Assembly (NCBI GenBank): GCA_913060515.1
Contig: CAJXRZ010000001.1
Coordinates: 51,478 to 115,477 of the forward strand
Origin: an uncultured Pseudomonadota bacterium
Lineage (GTDB): Bacteria > Myxococcota_A > UBA796 > CAJQPC01
Length of the DNA: 64,000 nt
Direction of reading: 5' to 3'
Made by a program: the position numbers and the translations under genes. The notes beneath the pieces were generated by a model. The model had not been told where the DNA came from. It saw nothing but the letters and a program-made list of their open reading frames with translations, and ran no database searches. The number at the start of each line of letters is the position of its first letter. Within the stretch, counting starts at the first letter, position 1. Of this stretch, positions 1 through 60,822 are shown in pieces.

Positions 1-1065
1 CGTGAAGACACAGTTCTCTACAACAATACCGCCAGACACTTCGGATTCAATAGACAGTGCAAAGCCTGCGTTTCCGCTGAGTGTCACGCCGGAGAGGATG
101 GCCTCGCCTTCGTCCAACTCAAGGGCACCGTAGCTGTAGTCGGGGGTGCCATCTCGGTCCCCAGCGTCGGAGATTTTGGTGTAGTACAGCTCGCTGACGA
201 TGGCGCCGCCGTTGCGAATGGTCAGACCCTTCCAGAAGCCTGGCAGGGCTTGCGCGCCTTGAATGACCACCCCTTCGGTCTCGGTGCCCATGGAGAGCAG
301 CTGGCCGGTCTCGTCTACATCAAACCTCGAGTCCTCGTGCATGGTGAGGGTCAGGCCCGGGGAGAGGGTCAGCGCGGCATCGATGTTCCAGTCGTAGCGG
401 AAGGATGCAAAGTCCAGCGCCGGGAGGACGCCATCGCTCGCAAGGTCCCCATCTTCCAGAAGCACCACGCCCCCGTCCATCTCCAGCGCGCCGCTGAGTC
501 CGGTTCCTTGCTGAAGTCCGAGCAAGGCCGGGGTCGCCGCGCCATAGATGGCCAAGCCCTCGATGACCACGGGTGCGGTCGCACTGTGCGCGTAGAAGCC
601 GTACTCGGTGCTCTGCTCAATCCACAGGTCCGTGCCTGTGATGCTGCCGCCCGTCAGGTGCACGCCTGCATGCACGCCCCCGTAGGAGGTGTCGCCGCCA
701 CCGATGACCGTAAGCTTGTTGAAGGTCATCTCGCCGTCGACGAAGAGGCCGAACCAGGAGTCCACGTCGTCGCTTTGTCCCTGGAGGACCACGCCGACTT
801 CGTTGCCCTGGACGTCCAGGCTGCCGCTTGTGCGCACCTCGATCCACATTCCAGCCGCCACGAAGACTTCCACCCCATCTTCAAGGACCACATCCCCGTC
901 AATGTCCAAGTCTTCGTTCAGCAGGTAGCAACCGGCTGTCAGGGTGCCTCCTGTGCTGAGCTCCGCTGTGTCGATGACGATGCAGTCTGCGGTGGGGTCT
1001 TCTTCGACGGCCTTGTCACAGCCCACCAGTAGGGCGGCCAAGACAAGAAGGGATCGTTGGGTCAT
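1..1065 (-). CDS. Secreted lipoprotein with right-handed parallel beta-helix repeats; 3' end runs off the window
   Basis: Minus-strand reading frame from ATG at 1065 (GGAG SD 6-9 nt upstream) translates MTQRSLLVLAALLVGCDKAVEEDP... with a lipobox (LVGC) and diverse, GC3-rich codons. The plus-strand ORF 250..1032 has H/R-rich antisense-like composition. No stop in window, so absent from the ORF track. Confidence 0.6.
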   Translation of the reverse strand, partial: MTQRSLLVLAALLVGCDKAVEEDPTADCIVIDTAELSTGGTLTAGCYLLNEDLDIDGDVVLEDGVEVFVAAGMWIEVRTSGSLDVQGNEVGVVLQGQSDDVDSWFGLFVDGEMTFNKLTVIGGGDTSYGGVHAGVHLTGGSITGTDLWIEQSTEYGFYAHSATAPVVIEGLAIYGAATPALLGLQQGTGLSGALEMDGGVVLLEDGDLASDGVLPALDFASFRYDWNIDAALTLSPGLTLTMHEDSRFDVDETGQLLSMGTETEGVVIQGAQALPGFWKGLTIRNGGAIVSELYYTKISDAGDRDGTPDYSYGALELDEGEAILSGVTLSGNAGFALSIESEVSGGIVVENCVFT

Positions 1066-1163
1066 GCTGTCTCCATGGTTCGCCGTTGATACGGCAGACA
1101 GCGCGATCTGAACCGAAAGCTTATCGAAATACCCAGAATACTGGGCAAAGCTCAGTTTTCTGG

Positions 1164-3479
1164 CTAACCGAAGCGCGGTCGATTCCGAACTTGGGTGATC
1201 CAGAAGCGCAGGGCCAGGGACGGTGTTGTCTGAGGGAGATTCAGCAGGGTCTCTGCACCTTCTTGGTCCCCCTCGCTCAGGCAGTGCTCCAGCTTCCAAG
1301 CTCGGAACACAAGCTCCGCAAGTGAGGTCCCGTCGACCATCTTCATGCCTTGGAGCGCCCGCCGTACCGGAAGCTGTGTACTAGCCCCGCCAAGGCGTAG
1401 CTGGTAAATGCAGAGCAGGTCTTGGAAGAGCAAGCGCAGCGCTGGGTTTCGATCGGCCGCACCCACGTCCAGGAAAGGCTTGGCGCCCGCCTCGTCGCCC
1501 AACAGCAGCAGCCAGAGACCCGCGCGACTCACCGCCCACCCGCTCAGACCGGCCTTGATAGTGCTCTGCCCCACCGCGCGGTAGGCAGCGATTGCCCCCT
1601 CCGTGTCCCCGTTGGCCCCCAGGCTCGCCGCCAGGGCCTGTCGCGCTGTGAGAGCCAACCCGACCAGTCCGCCATCTTGGAAGGCGTCCATCAAGTCTCG
1701 CAGCAGGGCCTCTGCAGCCAGGTGCTCGCCGCGACGCTGTTGGGCCTGGGCGATGAAGAGACCGAGGAGGTCGACCAGGAGCCTGTGCTTGGGGAATTCT
1801 TGCTGCAGCGCGGTCGCGCTGGCCACGGGGTCCGCTGCCTCACGAACCAGCACGAGCTGCCGCAAAGGCTCCAGATGGGCCGCTTGGGTTTGCTTCGGCA
1901 CGTGCTTGGCAGGTTGAAACGCACCAGGCAGCCAAGCGTGGCAATGCAAGAACAGGGCGCGCACCGCGAATGCCTCCGTGACCTCTTTCAGCGCCTGGGA
2001 GATCTGTTGTTCTGTCGCGTTGTGACCGATGAAGCCCCCGAGCAATACCAGCTCTGGTGCGCCCGGAACACGCCGCTGAGCGATGCGCCAGGCCGCAGCG
2101 TAGAACTGGAATGGCCCGCTCAGGTAGGAGAAGAGAAGCATGGTCCAGAGCAGGTGTGGGAGCTCGCTCTCCGGCGCACTCTCCATGATCTCCAGCAGGT
2201 CCTCCAGGTACCGGCGCATCTCCTGCAGCACGGTCGCGGGGCGCAACATCACCTTGTCGGCCGCATCCAGAAAGCGGTCTGTCAGCCACACTTGGTAGCC
2301 CTTCTTCGCAGCGTCGGTCTGCTTGGGGTAGTGCTGCGCAAGGAAGCTGCGCAGTGGCGTTGAGCATCGCCAGCCTTGGTCCTGTGGGAGCAGCAAGGAG
2401 TGCCGCGCCAGCTCGATGCTGGCCGCCCGTCCAGTCGGTCCAAGCCAGCTCTCCAGGCTGCGCGCCGGTACGCCGTCCCGGGTTGCAGCCAGCTTGATTA
2501 GGGTTTGGAGGAGCTCGGGTGTCAGGGCGCTGACGCTGCGCTGGATGGCGTGCTCCAGGGCGGGCGCCTCGCGGAGCACCCCTGCCTCCAGGGCCTCCAT
2601 CAACGAGGTCACGCCGAAGGGGCGCCCGGTGGCGACCTCTATGGCCAGTGGTGAGCCTTCGACCAGCGCTAAGAAGCGATCCAGAAGGTCTGGGGTCAGG
2701 TCTTCTTCCCATCGGCTGGCCGCCAAGCAGGTGGAGGCAAAGGCACGGCCCTGCTCTTTGGAGAGCCCTCCAAGCGGGTAGACCGCCTCGTCTGGGCGGC
2801 CCAGGTCCCGGCGACTGGTGATCAAGAAGTGGTGGTCGGGCAGGCCATCGATGATGCGCGCCACGGTGGGAAGCACGCCCTCGGCCTCGTCCAGGATGAT
2901 GAGCAGCCGGTGGCCCTTGAGGGCCTGCGCGACACCGACTAGACCGCCCTCGAAGGTGTTGGTCGCCAGGAGCAAGGCGCGTATCGCTGCGTCGGCATCC
3001 TGTACCCCGGCCAACGACACATAAACCCGAGCGCCAACGTGTTCGCGCGCCAGCCGAAGGGCCAAGCGTGTCTTTCCACTTCCTCCAGGCCCAGAGAGGG
3101 TCACCACCCGCCAGCCGCCGTCCAAGAGGGCCTGAAGTCGGCGCTCGTCTTCAAGTCGCGGAAAATAGGGCCGAGCGAAGCTTGGCAGAGCCCCCAAGGT
3201 GTTCTCGATGGGGATCCGGTAGCCGGCGCTGCGCACGTTCTCGATGCGGCAGTGAGGAGTCAGCTTCCGGCGCAGGTTTCTCAGAGTGACGGGGACCGTC
3301 TCAGAGCGAACCCCAGGCGCCATCCCCCAGAGCGCCTCCGCCAGCTCCTCCTTGGGCACCAAGCTGCCTGCCCTGGCCAGCAGGTAGGCGAACACTTGGG
3401 CTTCCTTGGGACTAAGCTGTGCTGACCCATCCGGGCTGTTGAAGCGCCGGTTTGGCTGGTCAAAGGACCAGTGGCCCAT
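1164..3479 (-). CDS. Transcriptional regulator: N-terminal OmpR/PhoB-type winged helix (trans_reg_C) fused to STAND/NB-ARC-like P-loop NTPase and C-terminal TPR-like region
   Basis: wHTH motif LSPKEAQVFAYLLARAGSLVPKEELAEALWG...VTLRNLRRKL...VRSAGYRI; Walker A LSGPGGSGKTRLAL; long helical C-terminus. ORF track start at 3611 overlaps the upstream gene; internal ATG 3479 (MGHWSF...) or a nearby alternative start is more likely. Confidence 0.75.
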   Translation of the reverse strand: MGHWSFDQPNRRFNSPDGSAQLSPKEAQVFAYLLARAGSLVPKEELAEALWGMAPGVRSETVPVTLRNLRRKLTPHCRIENVRSAGYRIPIENTLGALPSFARPYFPRLEDERRLQALLDGGWRVVTLSGPGGSGKTRLALRLAREHVGARVYVSLAGVQDADAAIRALLLATNTFEGGLVGVAQALKGHRLLIILDEAEGVLPTVARIIDGLPDHHFLITSRRDLGRPDEAVYPLGGLSKEQGRAFASTCLAASRWEEDLTPDLLDRFLALVEGSPLAIEVATGRPFGVTSLMEALEAGVLREAPALEHAIQRSVSALTPELLQTLIKLAATRDGVPARSLESWLGPTGRAASIELARHSLLLPQDQGWRCSTPLRSFLAQHYPKQTDAAKKGYQVWLTDRFLDAADKVMLRPATVLQEMRRYLEDLLEIMESAPESELPHLLWTMLLFSYLSGPFQFYAAAWRIAQRRVPGAPELVLLGGFIGHNATEQQISQALKEVTEAFAVRALFLHCHAWLPGAFQPAKHVPKQTQAAHLEPLRQLVLVREAADPVASATALQQEFPKHRLLVDLLGLFIAQAQQRRGEHLAAEALLRDLMDAFQDGGLVGLALTARQALAASLGANGDTEGAIAAYRAVGQSTIKAGLSGWAVSRAGLWLLLLGDEAGAKPFLDVGAADRNPALRLLFQDLLCIYQLRLGGASTQLPVRRALQGMKMVDGTSLAELVFRAWKLEHCLSEGDQEGAETLLNLPQTTPSLALRFWITQVRNRPRFG

Positions 3480-3546
3480 GTGCTCGATCTCCGGTGGCCC
3501 AAGAGTGTAGCCGCAGTTGAGGTGACGCGCGGCTAGGGGCAGCTCC

Positions 3547-3996
3547 TTAGAGCGTGTCCAGGGCCAGCGCCTCCATCTCCTCGTGGCCGTCACGCCCTTG
3601 GCCTTCGCCAACGCGCTCCAGGTTCTGATCGATGACGATGTACTGGGGGCGACCTACGCCGGTGCGCCAGGCGTCCCATGCGATCTCGTCGGCGTCGTAG
3701 AGGACCGGGAAGCTCAGGCCGAGCTCGTCCACCCACTGGGCGTTCTCCTCGGGGGAGTCTGCGCGCAGCGCGGTGATGACCGTCAGGCCCAGGTCTTTGT
3801 TTTCGCTGTAGAAAGTCTCGGTATCTGGAGCCAGATCCCTACACGTTCCTCACCAAAAGGCGGACAGGTCCAGCAGAATCACGTCCCCCTGGAAGTCCGA
3901 GAGGGAGACGTCTTCCCCCAGGTGGTTGGGGAGCGTGAAGTCACCTGCGATGGCGTCTTGGGCGGGCTCGGCGCAGGCGAGCAGGAGCAGGAACAT
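3547..3996 (-). CDS. TlpA/ResA-like thioredoxin-fold thiol:disulfide oxidoreductase lipoprotein; predicted selenoprotein with Sec encoded by in-frame TGA at 3850-3852, redox motif W-U-G-T-C
   Basis: Track ORFs 3850..4083 and 3547..3732 are in the same frame (351 nt apart) and interrupted only by one TGA. Read-through gives MFLLLLACAEP...GDVILLDLSAFW[U]GTCRDLAPDTETFYSENKDLGLTVITALRADSPEENAQWVDELGLSFPVLYDADEIAWDAWRTGVGRPQYIVIDQNLERV... ATG 3996 has a GAGG SD about 7 nt upstream; lipobox LLLLAC. GC3 bias continues across the TGA. Confidence 0.6.
3807..3843 (-). other. Candidate bacterial SECIS-like stem-loop immediately 3' of the UGA (mRNA offsets +7 to +43)
   Basis: mRNA UGA-GGAACG-UGUAG-GG-AUCUG-GCUC-CAGAU-A-CC-GAGACUUU-CUACA: inner 5-bp stem AUCUG/CAGAU with tetraloop GCUC, extended by GG/CC, and an outer stem UGUAG/CUACA. 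Folded by eye only. Confidence 0.3.
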
Positions 3997-4052
3997 GGTG
4001 ACCTCGGTTGCAGGAGTGACGCCACTGGCCGGGAAAAGTTGCTGTGGGGTGA

Positions 4053-4547
4053 ATGGATTGGGTGTGCTTGCGTCTGTTCTCACTTCTCGGAGTCCCCTTG
4101 TTTGAGACCCTCTACCTGGCTGCCGCGCTCCTGCTGCTGTGTGTGGTGGTCGCCCTTGTGGCTGCGGTTGGCTTGGTCTGGTCCGTGGTGACCCGGCGCT
4201 GGGTAGGGGCGCTGGCCTTTGGCTTGCCGCTGCTCGTGGCGTCCCCCGGCTTGGTGTTCATCGGCGGAGTGGCGCGGATCTACCGAGTTCCGGACTGGTC
4301 GGGGCCCGTGGAGCTGGGCGAGCGCTATGCAGGGGGTGGGCAGGGTCTGGAGCTTCAGCAAGACGGCCGCTACGCCTGGGATGCAGGCGAGACTGGGACC
4401 TGGTCCTTTGAGCCCACGACAGGGCCCGATCTGACCCCGCACGCTGGCACGCTCACTCTGACCTCGCAGGCGGGTGAGCTTCGAGAGCTGGGGGCGCGCT
4501 GGGATGACGCCATCGGCGATCGCGGGCAGCTACTCCGGCTGCAGTAG
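4053..4547 (+). CDS. Hypothetical membrane protein with N-terminal TM segment
   Basis: GC3-rich frame; hydrophobic segment LYLAAALLLLCVVVALVAAVGLVWSVV. The start may instead be TTG 4098, which has a GGAG SD 5 nt upstream. Divergent from the thioredoxin gene. Confidence 0.5.
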   Translation: MDWVCLRLFSLLGVPLFETLYLAAALLLLCVVVALVAAVGLVWSVVTRRWVGALAFGLPLLVASPGLVFIGGVARIYRVPDWSGPVELGERYAGGGQGLELQQDGRYAWDAGETGTWSFEPTTGPDLTPHAGTLTLTSQAGELRELGARWDDAIGDRGQLLRLQ

Positions 4548-25295: not shown

Positions 25296-25381
25296 GGGGA
25301 CTCCGATGGGGCCGTCAGTCTACAGGGGTGGCTTGCTAACGGCGCCGGATGGTGGCTTTCTGGAGGGGATGGAGGCGAGTA

Positions 25382-27706
25382 ATGCTTGCTCTGACTTTGG
25401 CCCTGGTGATGGGTTGTGGCGATTCGGATGGCGACGGATTCAGAGGCGCTGAGGACTGCGATGAGTCCCAGGCTGGCGTGCATGTTGGCGCTGAGGAGAT
25501 CTGCGATGGCCTGGACAACGACTGCGATGGCTTTGTGGACAACGCGGCCGTCGATGGCGTGACCTACTTCTTGGACGGGGACCGAGACGGCTTCGGCAGC
25601 GACGATCTGAGTCAGGTGGCGTGCTCTGCCCCCTTGGGATTCGTCTCCGAGGGCGGGGACTGTGATGATCTGGAGCCCCTGGCCCATCCAGGCGCAGACG
25701 AGGTCTGTGACGGCGTGGACAACGACTGCGATGGTCTCCTGGACGGCGACGACGACTCGGTGGACTCCAGCACGGCCAGCGCCCACTGGATCGACTCGGA
25801 TCTGGACGGCTACGGGGATCCCGCCCAAGAGACCCTGAGCTGTGGTCCCTACGAAGGGGTCTCTGACAACCCCGATGACTGCAACGACTCAGACCCGGCG
25901 ATAAACCCAGAGACCTTCTGGTACGCGGACTTTGACGGGGATGGCTACGGGCAGACGGCCTACACAACCCAGTCCTGTGAGCAGCCCGATGGCTACGGCC
26001 CGGGGGCCGATGACTGCGATGACGACAACGATCAGGTCAACCCTGGAAGGGACGAGCTCTGCGACCTGGTGGACAACGACTGCGATGGTCAGATCGACGA
26101 GCCTGACGCGGTCGATGCGGTGGACTGGGTGCTGGACGTCGATGGGGACGGCTACGGCGTGACCGGAAGCGAAGTGCGTGGGTGTGTGGCGCCCGAGGGC
26201 TACGCGGCCCTGCCCGATGACTGCGATGACTCCGAGCCGACCATGAACCCGGGGGCCAGCGAGACCTGCGATCTGCTGGACAACGACTGCGATGGTGTTG
26301 TGGACTACGCCTACGCAGTGCCGGGCGACTTTGACACGCTCCAGGCCGCCCTGGACGGCTTGCCGGAAGGGGAAGGGGCCTGCGTGAGCGCAGGCACCTA
26401 CTACGAGAACTTGGACTGGACCCGAGATGTGACCCTGCGGGGCTGGCTGGACGAGGAGGTCGTGCTCGATGGTGGCTACACCACCTCGGTCGTGACGGTC
26501 ACAGGGACCTCGGATGCGGTGTTGGGTGAGATGCGTGTTCAGGGGGGCCAAGCGGCCTGGGGCGCGGGGATCTACGTCGACGGCGGGAGCTTCTTGCTCG
26601 AAGGCAGCACCTTGACAGGCCTGGACTGCATCTCAGGGCTGAGCTGCGATGGCTTGGCCGTCTACGTCCAGAACGGCGGCTCGGCGGCGTTCTCTGGGGT
26701 TGAGGTCAGCGGCGTGGAGCTGAGCCATGACCGCAGCGTCTACGGCCTGTTCCAGTGCGATGACACCGGCAGCTTGCAGATCCACGACACCCAAGTGCTG
26801 GACAACCTCATCGAGACCGTTGAGGACTACGACATCCACTGGCAGGGCTACCAGACCAACGCCTGCGAGACGGAGATGGATGGTTTTCTGCTCTCGGGGA
26901 ACATCATGCATGCCAGCGGGGCCCTGTACGGCTGGTCCTCTCGAGGCAGCGGCGCGGTGGTGAATGCCGACCACTGGGAGGTCTCCGACAACCTCTTGCA
27001 GGCCGACAACGCCATTCACGCGCAGTTCCTCTACAGCCGGAGCTACACGAACTTCACGGGCACCCACCTGGCGATGCTGGGCAACGAGATCATCGCCGAT
27101 GGCTCCACCTACGGATGGGTGCTGCGAGGCTCGGGCGCATCCTCCACCATCGGGCCGACCGTGATGTTGGTGAACAACCTCATCGTGGCTGGAAACGAGG
27201 TGTCCAACACCAACACCTCCGCCAATCTATACGGTGGGTTGTACCTGTATGGATCCAGTATGATCCTGAATAATGCCGACTTTGTCGACAACAACTTGAG
27301 CTCCTACAGCACCGCCTACACCCCGTGGTTCTACTTGAGCACCAGCACCAACTTGACGGTGCGAAACGTCAACGCGGTGGACAACCACTTTGTGGCGACC
27401 ACGGCCGGACGCGCCGACTTTTTCTACAGCTCCTCCTCCTCGGCGACGGCCGACTTGGACTACCTGAACCTGTCCGACAACACGGGCGGGAGCGACGTTC
27501 TCTACCTCTCGGGTACCTGGACGCCGGCCATCACCACCTACGAGGTGGACCCCAGCTACACCGACTTGAGCGGAGATGTCTGGGACTGGGATTTGCAGCT
27601 CAGCGGTGGCTCCTTGCTCGATGCCGGTGACCCCAACATCCTGGATGCGGACGGCAGCCGCTCGGACATGGGGGCCTATGGAGGGCCGGAGGGCACCACT
27701 TGGTAG
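25382..27706 (+). CDS. Lipoprotein with tandem MopE-type CDGxDNDCDG metal-binding repeats followed by a beta-helix region
   Basis: ATG 25382 with GGAGG SD; MLALTLALVMGCGDSDGD; at least 7 repeats of DCDD..P...PGA.E.CDG.DNDCDG. Confidence 0.75.
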   Translation: MLALTLALVMGCGDSDGDGFRGAEDCDESQAGVHVGAEEICDGLDNDCDGFVDNAAVDGVTYFLDGDRDGFGSDDLSQVACSAPLGFVSEGGDCDDLEPLAHPGADEVCDGVDNDCDGLLDGDDDSVDSSTASAHWIDSDLDGYGDPAQETLSCGPYEGVSDNPDDCNDSDPAINPETFWYADFDGDGYGQTAYTTQSCEQPDGYGPGADDCDDDNDQVNPGRDELCDLVDNDCDGQIDEPDAVDAVDWVLDVDGDGYGVTGSEVRGCVAPEGYAALPDDCDDSEPTMNPGASETCDLLDNDCDGVVDYAYAVPGDFDTLQAALDGLPEGEGACVSAGTYYENLDWTRDVTLRGWLDEEVVLDGGYTTSVVTVTGTSDAVLGEMRVQGGQAAWGAGIYVDGGSFLLEGSTLTGLDCISGLSCDGLAVYVQNGGSAAFSGVEVSGVELSHDRSVYGLFQCDDTGSLQIHDTQVLDNLIETVEDYDIHWQGYQTNACETEMDGFLLSGNIMHASGALYGWSSRGSGAVVNADHWEVSDNLLQADNAIHAQFLYSRSYTNFTGTHLAMLGNEIIADGSTYGWVLRGSGASSTIGPTVMLVNNLIVAGNEVSNTNTSANLYGGLYLYGSSMILNNADFVDNNLSSYSTAYTPWFYLSTSTNLTVRNVNAVDNHFVATTAGRADFFYSSSSSATADLDYLNLSDNTGGSDVLYLSGTWTPAITTYEVDPSYTDLSGDVWDWDLQLSGGSLLDAGDPNILDADGSRSDMGAYGGPEGTTW

Positions 27707-60135: not shown

Positions 60136-60453
60136 ATGCCCCATCGCAACAACCCCGAAGAAGAAGAGTACTTCGCCCGCTTGGATGCGGAGAAGAAGGC
60201 CGCGCTGCGCAAGCGCTTGAACGTTGAGCACGCGGCTCAGGCCGCAGAGGAGCGCAAGGAGCGCCACTTCATGCACTGCGGAAAGTGTGGCGGACCGATG
60301 GCCCCCAAGCTCTTCAAGGGCGTGGAAGTCGACGTTTGCGGCGACTGTGGCGCTGTTCTGCTCGATCCTGGCGAGCTGGAGCAGCTCGCCGGTGAAGAGA
60401 GCCACGGCTTGGAGAACCTTGCGGCCTTCTTCGGCCTCAGCAAGGACGACTGA
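60136..60453 (+). CDS. zf-TFIIB-type zinc-ribbon domain protein
   Basis: HCGKCGGPMAPKLFKGVEVDVCGDCGAVLLDPGELEQL C4 ribbon; ATG 60136 with AGAAGG SD. Confidence 0.7.
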   Translation: MPHRNNPEEEEYFARLDAEKKAALRKRLNVEHAAQAAEERKERHFMHCGKCGGPMAPKLFKGVEVDVCGDCGAVLLDPGELEQLAGEESHGLENLAAFFGLSKDD

Positions 60454-60822
60454 GTGGATCTGGACTTTAAGCGCATCTCGGAGCGGGCTGGCCTTCAGGT
60501 TGAGCCGCAGCTGGAGTCTGCGCTTCAAGTCCAGGTCGACGCCTTGGCTGGCTATGCCAAGGCCTTGGGCGGACTGGAGCTGCCCGAGCACATCTCCGAG
60601 TCCCCAGCCATGCCGCTGCGACGTGATGTCGCCATGCCCGTGCCCAGCGCTCCGGTGCTCAAAGGCTTGGCCCGTCAGGGCGACCAGGTGCGGCTCCCGG
60701 GCGTTCCCCATGCCGAGAAGCGCAAAGTCGCCCGCGAGATCCGGCCGACGCGCATCGAACGGGTCTCCGACGGCAAGGAACTCCAGCTTCCCAGCTGGCC
60801 GCCCACTCGGGAGGACGCGTGA
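60454..60822 (+). CDS. gatC: Asp/Glu-tRNA amidotransferase subunit C with C-terminal extension
   Basis: GTG start; GatC-like helical N-terminus (I.E...L..L...E.E......L); immediately upstream of gatA and coupled to it. Confidence 0.65.
   Translation: MDLDFKRISERAGLQVEPQLESALQVQVDALAGYAKALGGLELPEHISESPAMPLRRDVAMPVPSAPVLKGLARQGDQVRLPGVPHAEKRKVAREIRPTRIERVSDGKELQLPSWPPTREDA

What the first reader, a model, noticed from the sequence alone, without database searches (positions are those of the whole stretch)
3547..3996. Candidate selenoprotein: in-frame TGA at the first Cys of the CXXC motif of a TlpA-like thioredoxin lipoprotein (W-U-G-T-C)
Two minus-strand ORFs in the track (3850..4083 and 3547..3732) are exactly in frame (351 nt apart). 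They are separated by a single TGA at 3850-3852 and nothing else. Reading through gives one 149-aa lipoprotein from ATG 3996, which has a GAGG SD and the lipobox MFLLLLAC. The TGA falls precisely where TlpA/ResA/DsbE-family proteins carry the nucleophilic Cys of WCxxCRxExP. Here the context is ...LDLSAFW-TGA-GTCRDLAPDTETF..., followed by the conserved C-terminal thioredoxin-fold core (RTGVGRPQYIVIDQNLERV). GC3 bias and conservation continue uninterrupted across the stop. A UGA at a redox Cys position is the classic signature of bacterial Sec recoding (UxxC thiol:disulfide oxidoreductases). A nonsense pseudogene is the alternative.
Basis: partly seen in the sequence, partly recalled or inferred. 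Interest (0 to 1): 0.85.

Follow-up and report, generated by a model that had tools for sequence, protein, structure and literature searches.

The report
Selenocysteine-containing TlpA-like thioredoxin gene
The in-frame TGA is almost certainly a selenocysteine codon in the active site of a small thioredoxin-like redox protein from an uncultured marine myxobacterium; this is a known kind of bacterial selenoprotein, but public annotations cut this gene into two fragments.

Summary
A single TGA (window 3850-3852, minus strand) interrupts a 149-codon AhpC/TSA-Redoxin (TlpA/ResA-like) gene exactly at the first Cys of W-C-x-x-C.

It is not a pseudogene:
- Five distinct close orthologues (84-99% aa) and seven distant homologues (33-41% aa, contig GC 42-71%) all carry TGA at this codon.
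- The part after the TGA is under purifying selection (dN/dS 0.12-0.15 at dS 0.5-0.75).
- TGA is the commonest normal terminator in the window (17 of 34 genes).
- Cys-containing relatives align WCxxC with W-U-G-T-C.

A hairpin follows the TGA in all 11 sequences. Its 4-nt loop, G-N-Y-C, starts exactly 18 nt after the UGA. Four stem pairs are kept through compensatory changes (0 of 500 shuffles reach the observed covariation). The hairpin fits the published bacterial SECIS model and sits in the same register as the GGUC loop of the E. coli fdhF SECIS.

Two points are not established. selA, selB, selC and selD are not in the window or in the stretches read just beyond either end, so the Sec machinery is untested. 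The lipoprotein signal is unusually short.

UxxC thioredoxin-fold selenoproteins are well known, so this is a new, so far unannotated member of a known kind. Interest is moderate to low.

The parts
3547..3996 (-). Complete selenoprotein coding sequence: 149 codons (48 + Sec + 100) plus the TAA stop. It encodes a TlpA/ResA-like AhpC-TSA/Redoxin thioredoxin-fold domain.
   Evidence: frame. Pfam PF00578 at 64.4 bits against a cut-off of 26, PF08534 at 46.9 against 26.6; conservation among orthologues begins at the SD/ATG and ends at the stop; dN/dS is 0.00-0.09 before and 0.12-0.15 after the TGA.
3850..3852 (-). UGA codon 49, predicted selenocysteine (U of W-U-G-T-C). This is the nucleophilic position of the CxxC motif.
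   Evidence: TGA is kept at this codon in L001, L002/L004, L006, L007, L016 and L017 and in L008, L009, L011-L015. It aligns with Cys in PDB chains and in Cys homologues.
3820..3839 (-). Predicted bacterial SECIS upper hairpin: 5' arm GGGAUCUG (3839-3832), loop GCUC (3831-3828), 3' arm CAGAUACC (3827-3820). The loop starts 18 nt after the UGA.
   Evidence: fold; across 11 homologues, 86% of cells are paired, four pairs are always paired with 3-6 double changes each, 0 of 500 shuffles reach the covariation score, and slid controls give 48% paired or less; same register as the E. coli fdhF GGUC loop. The model criteria are quoted from PMC13188914.
3841..3843 (-). TGT, Cys52, the resolving Cys of the U-x-x-C motif.
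   Evidence: Invariant in all homologues, both Sec and Cys forms.
3646..3648 (-). CCC, Pro117, in the R-P-Q-Y-I-V-I-D segment. This is the conserved cis-proline position of the thioredoxin fold.
   Evidence: Invariant column in both alignments. The assignment as cis-Pro is inferred from alignment with the ResA/TlpA family.
3973..3984 (-). L-L-A-C lipobox-like motif (codons 5-8). Possible lipidation at Cys8.
   Evidence: Read directly from the sequence. Identical in L001 and L002. Distant homologues have lipobox N-termini, for example L013 MRTSSLLCAVLVAC and L009 VLLLLALLAC. The signal is only 7 residues long with no basic residue, so it is unverified.
4002..4005 (-). GAGG Shine-Dalgarno-like motif, 5 nt upstream of the ATG at 3996.
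   Evidence: CGAGGT is conserved in L001 and L002 while the sequence further upstream diverges.

Best explanation
The gene encodes a genuine selenoprotein: a small TlpA/ResA-like thioredoxin-fold thiol:disulfide oxidoreductase. Its redox centre is Sec49-Gly-Thr-Cys52 in place of Cys-x-x-Cys.

During translation the UGA is not read as a stop. The mRNA just downstream folds into a SECIS hairpin whose G-N-Y-C tetraloop begins 18 nt after the UGA. This hairpin would recruit SelB-GTP-Sec-tRNA(Sec) to the ribosome, as the E. coli fdhF element does. That step is inferred from the hairpin's form, position and covariation; it has not been shown.

The mature protein would cycle between a selenolate/thiol state and a selenenylsulfide (Se-S) state to reduce disulfides or sulfenic acids in partner proteins. 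By homology with TlpA, ResA, CcmG and Etrx proteins, and from the lipobox, it is probably anchored on the outer face of the inner membrane and re-reduced by a CcdA/DsbD-type electron shuttle. This last part is inference: no such partner lies nearby and the substrate is unknown.

The host is an uncultured marine Myxococcota bacterium.
For: (1) TGA is conserved at the codon in five distinct close orthologues from independent assemblies with conserved pfkA synteny. It is also conserved in seven homologues of only 33-41% identity whose contigs have 42-71% GC.

(2) Purifying selection acts after the TGA: dN/dS 0.12-0.15 at dS 0.49-0.75.

(3) TGA is an ordinary stop in this genome. It ends 17 of 34 window genes and ends this very gene in L001 and L002.

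(4) Sec/Cys pairing holds. U aligns with the first Cys of WCGPC/WCPPC in solved structures 2yp6, 4hqz and 3kcm (alignments shown), and the same search also hits ResA chains. It aligns likewise in the Cys homologues P0050, P0051, P0052, P0017 and P0031. W48, C49, C52 and P117 are invariant columns.

(5) The hairpin is conserved. Its loop starts at nt 22 counted from the U of UGA in all 11 sequences, and G is invariant at loop position 1. Pairs 23-36, 24-35, 25-34 and 26-33 are always paired, with 6, 5, 3 and 4 double changes. The covariation score is 0.723 against 0.281 ± 0.05 in shuffles (0 of 500 reach it), and slid controls give 48% paired or less. The stem covers different amino acids in different members (RDLAPD, RSSGPS, QTLVPE, MSQAPG), so the constraint is on the RNA.

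(6) The hairpin meets every criterion of the published bSECIS model: loop 3-9 nt, stem 4-16 bp, G in the first two loop positions, 16-37 nt spacing, MFE of -7.5 kcal/mol or lower (criteria from PMC13188914; energies -8.4 to -15.3 for the close orthologues and -10.0 to -19.6 for the distant members).

(7) The stem is built from codons that are rare here (AGG is 4.6% of Arg codons, CCA 15% of Pro, GAT 27% of Asp), and these are kept in all close orthologues.

(8) The experimentally defined E. coli fdhF SECIS has its GGUC loop at the same nt 22-25.
Against: No selA, selB, selD or tRNA-Sec was found in the window or in the stretches read just beyond either end (about 5 kb and 10 kb). This is about 80 kb of a genome that is probably several Mb, so it carries little weight, but the machinery remains unverified.

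The folding energy of the region is not better than shuffled sequence (z = +0.30 for 81 nt; z = -1.18 for 48 nt).

Among the close orthologues alone, the stem's synonymous-site conservation is not statistically exceptional, because other invariant runs in the gene are equally long.

The loop is GCUC, not the commonest G[G/U] pattern.

No experimental data exist.
Confidence: 0.9

Rival explanations
1. The gene is a pseudogene: a TlpA-like gene inactivated by a Cys (TGC/TGT) to TGA nonsense mutation.
For: A single-base change of TGC or TGT gives TGA. Public annotations treat the locus as two small fragments called 'hypothetical protein' or 'peroxiredoxin'.
Against: The TGA is kept across dS 0.5-1.15 in the close orthologues while the downstream 100 codons stay intact with dN/dS 0.12-0.15. 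The same codon is TGA in seven homologues of 33-41% identity from very different genomes. There are no frameshifts or further stops anywhere. A covarying hairpin follows the TGA.
Confidence: 0.02
2. There are two separate products: a 48-residue lipopeptide that ends at the TGA, and an independent C-terminal protein started at an internal GTG or ATG (for example GTG 3732).
For: Gene callers produce exactly this split: 48 aa plus 61 or 81 aa.
Against: The stretch between the TGA and the first possible restart (3849-3733, 39 codons) is conserved in frame and under purifying selection. It carries the resolving Cys and the start of the thioredoxin fold. Neither half is a complete fold: the Pfam match spans residues 17-125, across the TGA. 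The internal starts used by gene callers differ from homologue to homologue.
Confidence: 0.02
3. The UGA is decoded as a standard amino acid, through a lineage-wide TGA reassignment or context-dependent read-through (Trp, Gly or Cys), not as selenocysteine.
For: One database entry (P0008, a TARA sample) was deposited with W at this position. The Sec machinery is not demonstrated for this genome.
Against: TGA ends 17 of 34 window genes, and ends this gene itself in L001 and L002, so there is no reassignment. Trp or Gly at the nucleophilic position would destroy the redox centre that every Cys homologue keeps. The hairpin matches the SelB-type SECIS in form and spacing, which plain read-through does not need. 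The W in P0008 is a translation-table artefact: the locus does not translate to that entry under table 11.
Confidence: 0.05

Closest known systems
'Prx-like thiol:disulfide oxidoreductase' bacterial selenoprotein family (PF00578, UxxC/UxxU), as listed in Zhang et al. 2006 (PMC1794560) and the 2026 review (PMC13188914)
   Same: The top Pfam domain is the same (AhpC-TSA). The motif is the same, U-x-x-C with Sec at the N-terminal redox position. It is likewise a thiol-oxidoreductase homologue with Cys-containing relatives. That family is common in Deltaproteobacteria, and here the host is Myxococcota.
   Different: No direct comparison with the family's exemplar (WP_010940744.1) could be made with these tools, so membership of that particular family rather than a sister clade is not shown. 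The members found here are unannotated fragments in public databases.
[quoted passage not shown]
   Same: TlpA/ResA-like thioredoxin fold with Sec in the active site. PF08534 is matched above its cut-off.
   Different: The motif here is F-W-U-G-T-C (UxxC), not WAxxUGC. NF041054 scores 33.7 bits against a cut-off of 300 and models a 354-residue protein. This protein has 149 residues.
Cys-containing extracytoplasmic thiol-disulfide oxidoreductases: ResA (PDB 1st9, 4nmu), pneumococcal Etrx (2yp6, 4hqz), DsbE-like (3gl3), Geobacter thioredoxin-family protein (3kcm), TlpA
   Same: Same fold and active-site architecture, W-C-x-x-C ... cis-Pro. E-values are 2e-11 to 4e-7, with the active sites aligned. 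Many relatives are membrane-anchored or lipoproteins.
   Different: Sec replaces the nucleophilic Cys. The scores are far below the NCBIfam cut-offs for ResA (46 against 170), TlpA (31 against 230) and DsbE (19 against 123), so it is not an orthologue of any of them. No cytochrome-c maturation or ccdA/dsbD genes lie next to it.
E. coli fdhF SECIS element (the SelB-binding hairpin)
   Same: Both lie inside the coding sequence immediately 3' of the UGA. Both have a tetraloop at nt 22-25 counted from the U of UGA, with G first (fdhF GGUC; here GCUC, GCCC, GGUC or GUUC) closed by a short G-C-containing stem.
   Different: There is no sequence similarity in the stem. The bulged U of fdhF is not evident; the window's hairpin has a G-A mismatch instead. 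SelB binding is not tested.
NCBIfam NF041057, Rcas_1661 family thioredoxin-like (seleno)lipoprotein (the 'DsbG-like' family of the review)
   Same: Precedent for a lipoprotein with a thioredoxin fold and a UxxC centre.
   Different: Only a marginal hit, for one distant homologue (L009, 19 bits against a cut-off of 190), and none for the window protein.

Membership tests
Bacterial selenoprotein (Sec-UGA recoding) | In-frame UGA conserved among orthologues, with an intact, selected reading frame on both sides | tested here: met
   12 distinct sequences have TGA at the codon. dN/dS after the TGA is 0.12-0.15.
Bacterial selenoprotein (Sec-UGA recoding) | Cys-containing homologues whose Cys aligns with the UGA (Sec/Cys pair) | tested here: met
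   U49 aligns with the first Cys of WCxxC in PDB chains and in P0017, P0031, P0050, P0051, P0052, P0054, P0057 and P0061.
Bacterial selenoprotein (Sec-UGA recoding) | bSECIS hairpin just 3' of the UGA: loop 3-9 nt, stem 4-16 bp, G in the first two loop positions, 16-37 nt spacing, MFE of -7.5 kcal/mol or lower (PMC13188914) | tested here: met
   Loop 4 nt (GCUC). Stem 5-8 bp. Spacing 18 nt. MFE -8.4 to -19.6 kcal/mol across the 11 members. Covariation in 4 always-paired pairs, 0 of 500 shuffles.
Bacterial selenoprotein (Sec-UGA recoding) | selA, selB, selC (tRNA-Sec) and selD present in the genome | not testable with these tools
   None found in the window or in the stretches read just beyond either end.
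Bacterial selenoprotein (Sec-UGA recoding) | Selenium actually incorporated (75Se labelling or mass spectrometry) | not testable with these tools
   Needs an experiment.
TlpA/ResA-like thioredoxin-fold oxidoreductases (AhpC-TSA / Redoxin, cd02966) | Domain match above the curated threshold | tested here: met
   PF00578 at 64.4 bits (cut-off 26). PF08534 at 46.9 (26.6). PF00085 at 24.3 (23.5).
TlpA/ResA-like thioredoxin-fold oxidoreductases (AhpC-TSA / Redoxin, cd02966) | W-C-x-x-C active site and a conserved cis-Pro | tested here: met
   W48, U49 (in the Cys column), C52 and P117 are invariant alignment columns.
TlpA/ResA-like thioredoxin-fold oxidoreductases (AhpC-TSA / Redoxin, cd02966) | Extracytoplasmic location (signal peptide, lipobox or membrane anchor) | tested here: inconclusive
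   The lipobox LLAC is present, but only 7 residues precede the Cys and there is no basic n-region. The upstream frame is not conserved. Homologues L013 and L009 and several Cys relatives do have lipobox or signal N-termini.
ResA / TlpA / DsbE (CcmG) proper (NCBIfam NF002854, NF047696, TIGR00385) | Score above the curated family cut-off | tested here: not met
   46.4 against 170, 31.3 against 230 and 18.7 against 123. No cytochrome-c maturation genes adjacent.
NCBIfam selenoprotein-specific families: NF041054 (WAxxUGC_long) and NF041057 (Rcas_1661 selenolipoprotein) | Score above the curated cut-off, and the family motif | tested here: not met
   NF041054 scores 33.7 against 300, and the motif here is FWUGTC, not WAxxUGC. 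NF041057 gives no hit for the window protein.
'Prx-like thiol:disulfide oxidoreductase' selenoprotein family (PF00578, UxxC) | PF00578 domain with Sec in a UxxC motif | tested here: met
   The family definition is quoted from PMC13188914.
'Prx-like thiol:disulfide oxidoreductase' selenoprotein family (PF00578, UxxC) | Phylogenetic grouping with the family's exemplar (WP_010940744.1) | not tested

The most novel reading that the evidence does not exclude
The window protein and the seven distant TGA-containing homologues may form a distinct, so far uncatalogued clade of exported seleno-(lipo)proteins. Its marks would be F/Y-W/T-U-x-x-C ... R-P-Q-Y-I-V-I-D ... L-L at the C-terminus. It would be spread across marine bacteria of very different GC content, separate from the listed Prx-like, Redoxin, UGC-TlpA and Rcas_1661 selenoprotein families. 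It would carry an unusually rigid SECIS: a tetraloop at a fixed 18-nt spacing, identical in register to E. coli fdhF. In this clade Sec appears to be the ancestral and near-universal state, not a sporadic Cys replacement.
Probability: 0.3. Interest if true: 0.45.

Novelty: new member of a known kind. Interest (0 to 1): 0.35.

Why it matters
The practical point is annotation. The database copies found for this gene and its relatives were split into fragments, either unnamed or called 'hypothetical protein' or 'peroxiredoxin'; one relative instead carries W at the TGA. Marine Myxococcota selenoproteomes are therefore under-counted.

The set of 11 sequences, with a fixed-register covarying hairpin, is a compact SECIS model. 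It could be used to recover the whole clade from metagenomes.

It also predicts that this uncultured myxobacterium needs selenium and carries selABCD.

Conceptually it adds little. UxxC thioredoxin-fold selenoproteins, seleno-lipoproteins included, are established.

Tried and rejected
- **Rfam:** no family matched, either at gathering thresholds over the whole window or at E up to 10 around the site. Rfam holds no model for this element.
- **Folding energy against shuffles:** not significant (z +0.30 and -1.18). Single-sequence energy is uninformative in GC-rich coding sequence, so I relied on covariation instead.
- **Synonymous-site conservation of the stem among the close orthologues alone:** suggestive but not exceptional, because other invariant runs are equally long.
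- **RNAalifold on the four close orthologues:** no compensatory changes. Covariation appeared only when distant homologues were added.
- **Other TGA-interrupted genes in the window:** the other sites were either ordinary adjacent genes sharing a frame (60451 and 31346) or coding-like frames with no redox motif.
- **Sec machinery:** no tRNA in the window or in eight of the fetched loci. No SelA, SelB or SelD domains among the ~50 window ORFs scanned against Pfam, or in the neighbouring stretches.
- **Metagenome scan:** added only a duplicate of L002 and one distant Cys relative.
- **Read-through protein (U replaced by C):** The same input rule applies to structure prediction, so no 3-D model was made, and the library search used only the 100 residues after the TGA.
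- **Operon link to the downstream OmpR-type regulator:** rejected, because the 99%-identical orthologue L007 lacks that gene.
- **Covariance model R1:** it finds only the target site in the window. This is expected by construction and shows only that there is no second copy.

Full report
**Observation**

On the minus strand, an ATG at 3996 opens a frame that runs to TAA at 3549-3547. Its only internal stop is TGA at 3852-3850, which is codon 49. A GAGG lies 5 nt before the ATG.

GC3 is 0.88 before and 0.82 after the TGA, which is the level of the window's genes. With C placed at codon 49, the 149-residue product matches three Pfam families above their cut-offs: AhpC-TSA (64.4 bits, cut-off 26), Redoxin (46.9, cut-off 26.6) and Thioredoxin (24.3, cut-off 23.5). 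The AhpC-TSA match spans residues 17-125, so it crosses the TGA.

A six-frame scan for TGA codons flanked on both sides by coding-like sequence returned five sites. This is the only one with a redox motif.

**Position of the TGA in the fold**

phmmer against PDB sequences aligns W-[U]-G-T-C with WCGPC and WCPPC of the pneumococcal Etrx proteins (2yp6, 4hqz) and a Geobacter thioredoxin-family protein (3kcm). The same search also hits ResA (1st9, 4nmu) and a DsbE-like protein (3gl3), at E = 2e-11 to 4e-7 overall.

In an alignment with eight Cys-containing homologues from the large protein databases, W48, position 49 (Cys in all of them), C52 and P117 (the cis-Pro position) are invariant.

**Not a pseudogene and not an assembly error**

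- **Close orthologues.** Loci with the same pfkA synteny come from independent assemblies:
  - L001 (93% aa)
  - L002, which is identical to L004 (84%)
  - L006 (90%, partial)
  - L007 (99%)
  - the window's own lineage, found in several ENA and Logan samples (L016, L017)

  All read TGG/ACx-TGA-GGx at this codon.
- **Boundaries.** Conservation starts at the SD/ATG and ends at the stop codon, and the flanks diverge.
- **Selection.** By Nei-Gojobori counts, dN/dS is 0.12-0.15 for the 100 codons after the TGA at dS 0.49-0.75, and 0.00-0.09 before it.
- **TGA as a terminator.** TGA is the commonest terminator in the window (17 of 34 genes). It also terminates this same gene in L001 and L002, so a reassigned genetic code is excluded.

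**A wider Sec-containing clade**

I searched the 1.84-billion-protein representative library with the 100 residues after the TGA. The hits were mostly short proteins of 55-104 residues that begin just after the active site, which is the signature of other split genes.

Fetching the DNA for seven of them (L008, L009, L011-L015; 33-41% identity; contig GC 42-71%) showed an in-frame TGA at exactly the same codon in every case. The motifs are U-G-S-C, U-M-T-C, U-R-G-C, U-S-A-C, U-G-A-C and U-S-T-C.

One of them (P0008, a TARA sample) had been deposited with W at the TGA. That is a translation-table artefact.

Full-length relatives with Cys exist at 24-42% identity over the full-length alignment (up to 45% over the locally aligned part). 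One is named 'TlpA family protein disulfide reductase [Deltaproteobacteria bacterium]'.

**The SECIS**

In all 11 distinct sequences a hairpin follows the UGA in one fixed register: a 10-nt spacer, an 8-nt 5' arm, a 4-nt loop and an 8-nt 3' arm (alignment A4 is ungapped). In the window these are 3839-3832, 3831-3828 (GCUC) and 3827-3820.

Counting pairs on that alignment gave the following:
- The closing G-C pair is invariant.
- The next four pairs are paired in all 11 sequences, through 4, 3, 5 and 6 double (compensatory) changes: AUCUG/CAGAU, GCUCG/CGAGC, CUCUG/CAGAG, CCCAG/CUGGG and CAGCG/CGUUG.
- 86% of cells are paired, against 66.5 ± 3.1% in shuffles.
- The covariation score is 0.723 against 0.281 ± 0.05, reached by 0 of 500 shuffles.
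- Sliding the partners by 1-3 columns drops pairing to 16-48%.

The arms encode different amino acids in different members, so the constraint is on the RNA and not on the protein. In the window the arms use codons that are rare in this genome: AGG is 4.6% of Arg codons, CCA 15% of Pro and GAT 27% of Asp.

The element meets every criterion of the consensus bacterial SECIS model as quoted in the 2026 review (PMC13188914). That model requires a 3-9 nt loop, a 4-16 bp upper stem, G in the first two loop positions, 16-37 nt between UGA and loop, and MFE of -7.5 kcal/mol or lower. Here the spacing is 18 nt, G is invariant at loop position 1, and the MFE is -8.4 to -19.6 kcal/mol.

I recalled the E. 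coli fdhF SECIS sequence from memory and verified it: it is 100% identical inside fdhF in 5,419 E. coli genomes. Folded, its GGUC loop occupies nt 22-25 counted from the U of UGA, exactly the position of the loop here. L008 even has GGUC.

Weak points:
- Single-sequence folding energies are not better than shuffles.
- Rfam has no matching family.
- The close orthologues alone show no compensatory change.

**What could not be shown**

No tRNA, and no SelA, SelB or SelD domain, occurs in the window, in the stretches read just beyond either end (about 5 kb and 10 kb), or in the other loci. This is about 80 kb of a genome that is probably several Mb, so it neither supports nor refutes.

TypA's closest named relatives (88%, 75% and 72% identity) are from Myxococcota MAGs, and a MopE-repeat protein is present. 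In the 2006 survey, selenoprotein-rich organisms included many Deltaproteobacteria, among them Anaeromyxobacter (PMC1794560). That makes Sec use plausible, but it is indirect evidence.

**Export**

The N-terminus MFLLLLAC carries an L-L-A-C lipobox, identical in L001 and L002. However, only seven residues precede the Cys, there is no basic residue, and the upstream frame is not conserved.

Homologues have clearer signals (L013 MRTSSLLCAVLVAC; several Cys relatives), usually followed by low-complexity linkers. Lipoprotein status is therefore likely by homology but unproven for this protein.

**Context**

Upstream and divergent is a small membrane protein (4098-4547, plus strand), conserved at 43% identity in L001, followed by a 103-residue ORF and pfkA. 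Downstream is an OmpR-type winged-helix regulator (1164-3479, minus strand). That gene is absent from the 99%-identical L007 locus, so it is not a conserved partner.

No ccdA/dsbD or cytochrome-maturation genes are nearby. The physiological substrate and reductant are therefore inferred only from the family.

**Comparison with known families**

UxxC thioredoxin-fold selenoproteins are long established. [quoted passage not shown] The 2026 review adds 'Redoxin family protein (PF08534, UxxC)' and 'UGC-containing TlpA family'.

By domain and motif this protein fits 'Prx-like thiol:disulfide oxidoreductase (PF00578, UxxC)'. Grouping with that family's exemplar was not tested.

It fails the NCBIfam cut-offs for all of the following:

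| NCBIfam model | Score (bits) | Cut-off (bits) |
|---|---|---|
| ResA | 46 | 170 |
| TlpA | 31 | 230 |
| DsbE | 19 | 123 |
| WAxxUGC_long (selenoprotein-specific) | 34 | 300 |
| Rcas_1661 (selenoprotein-specific) | no hit | 190 |

It works like these proteins but is not a member of any of those named families.

**Verdict**

This is a real, functional selenoprotein gene (confidence about 0.9), with Sec replacing the nucleophilic Cys of a TlpA-like CxxC oxidoreductase. It is read through by an fdhF-like, fixed-register SECIS hairpin.

It is a new, unannotated member of a known kind. The main value is for annotation and for estimating selenium use in marine Myxococcota. Interest is 0.35.

Noticed in passing
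L007:788-1960 compared with L016:12365-17644 (window 1-3546): The 99%-identical orthologous locus L007 goes straight from the selenoprotein gene to the hemerythrin/Fpg genes. The window's lineage has about 4 kb more in between, carrying an OmpR-type winged-helix regulator of about 772 residues and a beta-helix protein. This is a strain-level insertion or deletion.
   Followed up: partly
L008, L011, L012, L013, L015 (N-terminal to the thioredoxin domain): The distant Sec homologues share an extra conserved C-x11-C pair just before the domain. Those read further upstream (L012, L013) also show long D/P/T/A-rich low-complexity linkers. The window protein and its close orthologues lack both.
   Followed up: no
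L008:28-591 (protein P0008): This TARA Oceans entry was deposited with Trp at the TGA, so the gene was translated with a TGA=Trp table. It does not translate to the deposited protein under table 11.
   Followed up: yes
L001 (JBLHMA010000259.1, 7.6 kb, 63% GC): This contig is binned as 'Cognaticolwellia sp.', a gammaproteobacterium. Yet it shares pfkA/selenoprotein synteny and 88-93% protein identity with the window, whose TypA points to Myxococcota. It is probably mis-binned.
   Followed up: partly
L006:285-310: In this orthologue the ATG start is replaced by CTG, and the frame stays open about 190 nt further upstream across a hydrophobic segment. The start, and possibly the N-terminal anchor, differs in this lineage.
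   Followed up: no
window 25349-27706 (+), and L020:20573-20969: A 785-residue protein with at least four MopE-type 'putative metal-binding' repeats (PF11617). A second MopE-repeat gene lies about 10 kb beyond the window's end.
   Followed up: no
window 60136-60453 and 60454-60822 (+): Two small genes, a TFIIB-type zinc-ribbon protein and an unassigned 122-residue protein upstream of an amidase-family (possibly GatA) gene, share one frame and are separated only by a TGA. This mimics a TGA-interrupted gene. There is no Cys or redox motif at the junction, so they were judged to be ordinary adjacent genes.
   Followed up: yes
window 4098-4547 (+): A small predicted membrane protein with no Pfam match lies divergent from the selenoprotein gene. 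It is conserved next to it in L001 at 43% identity. Its function is unknown, and a functional link is possible.
   Followed up: no
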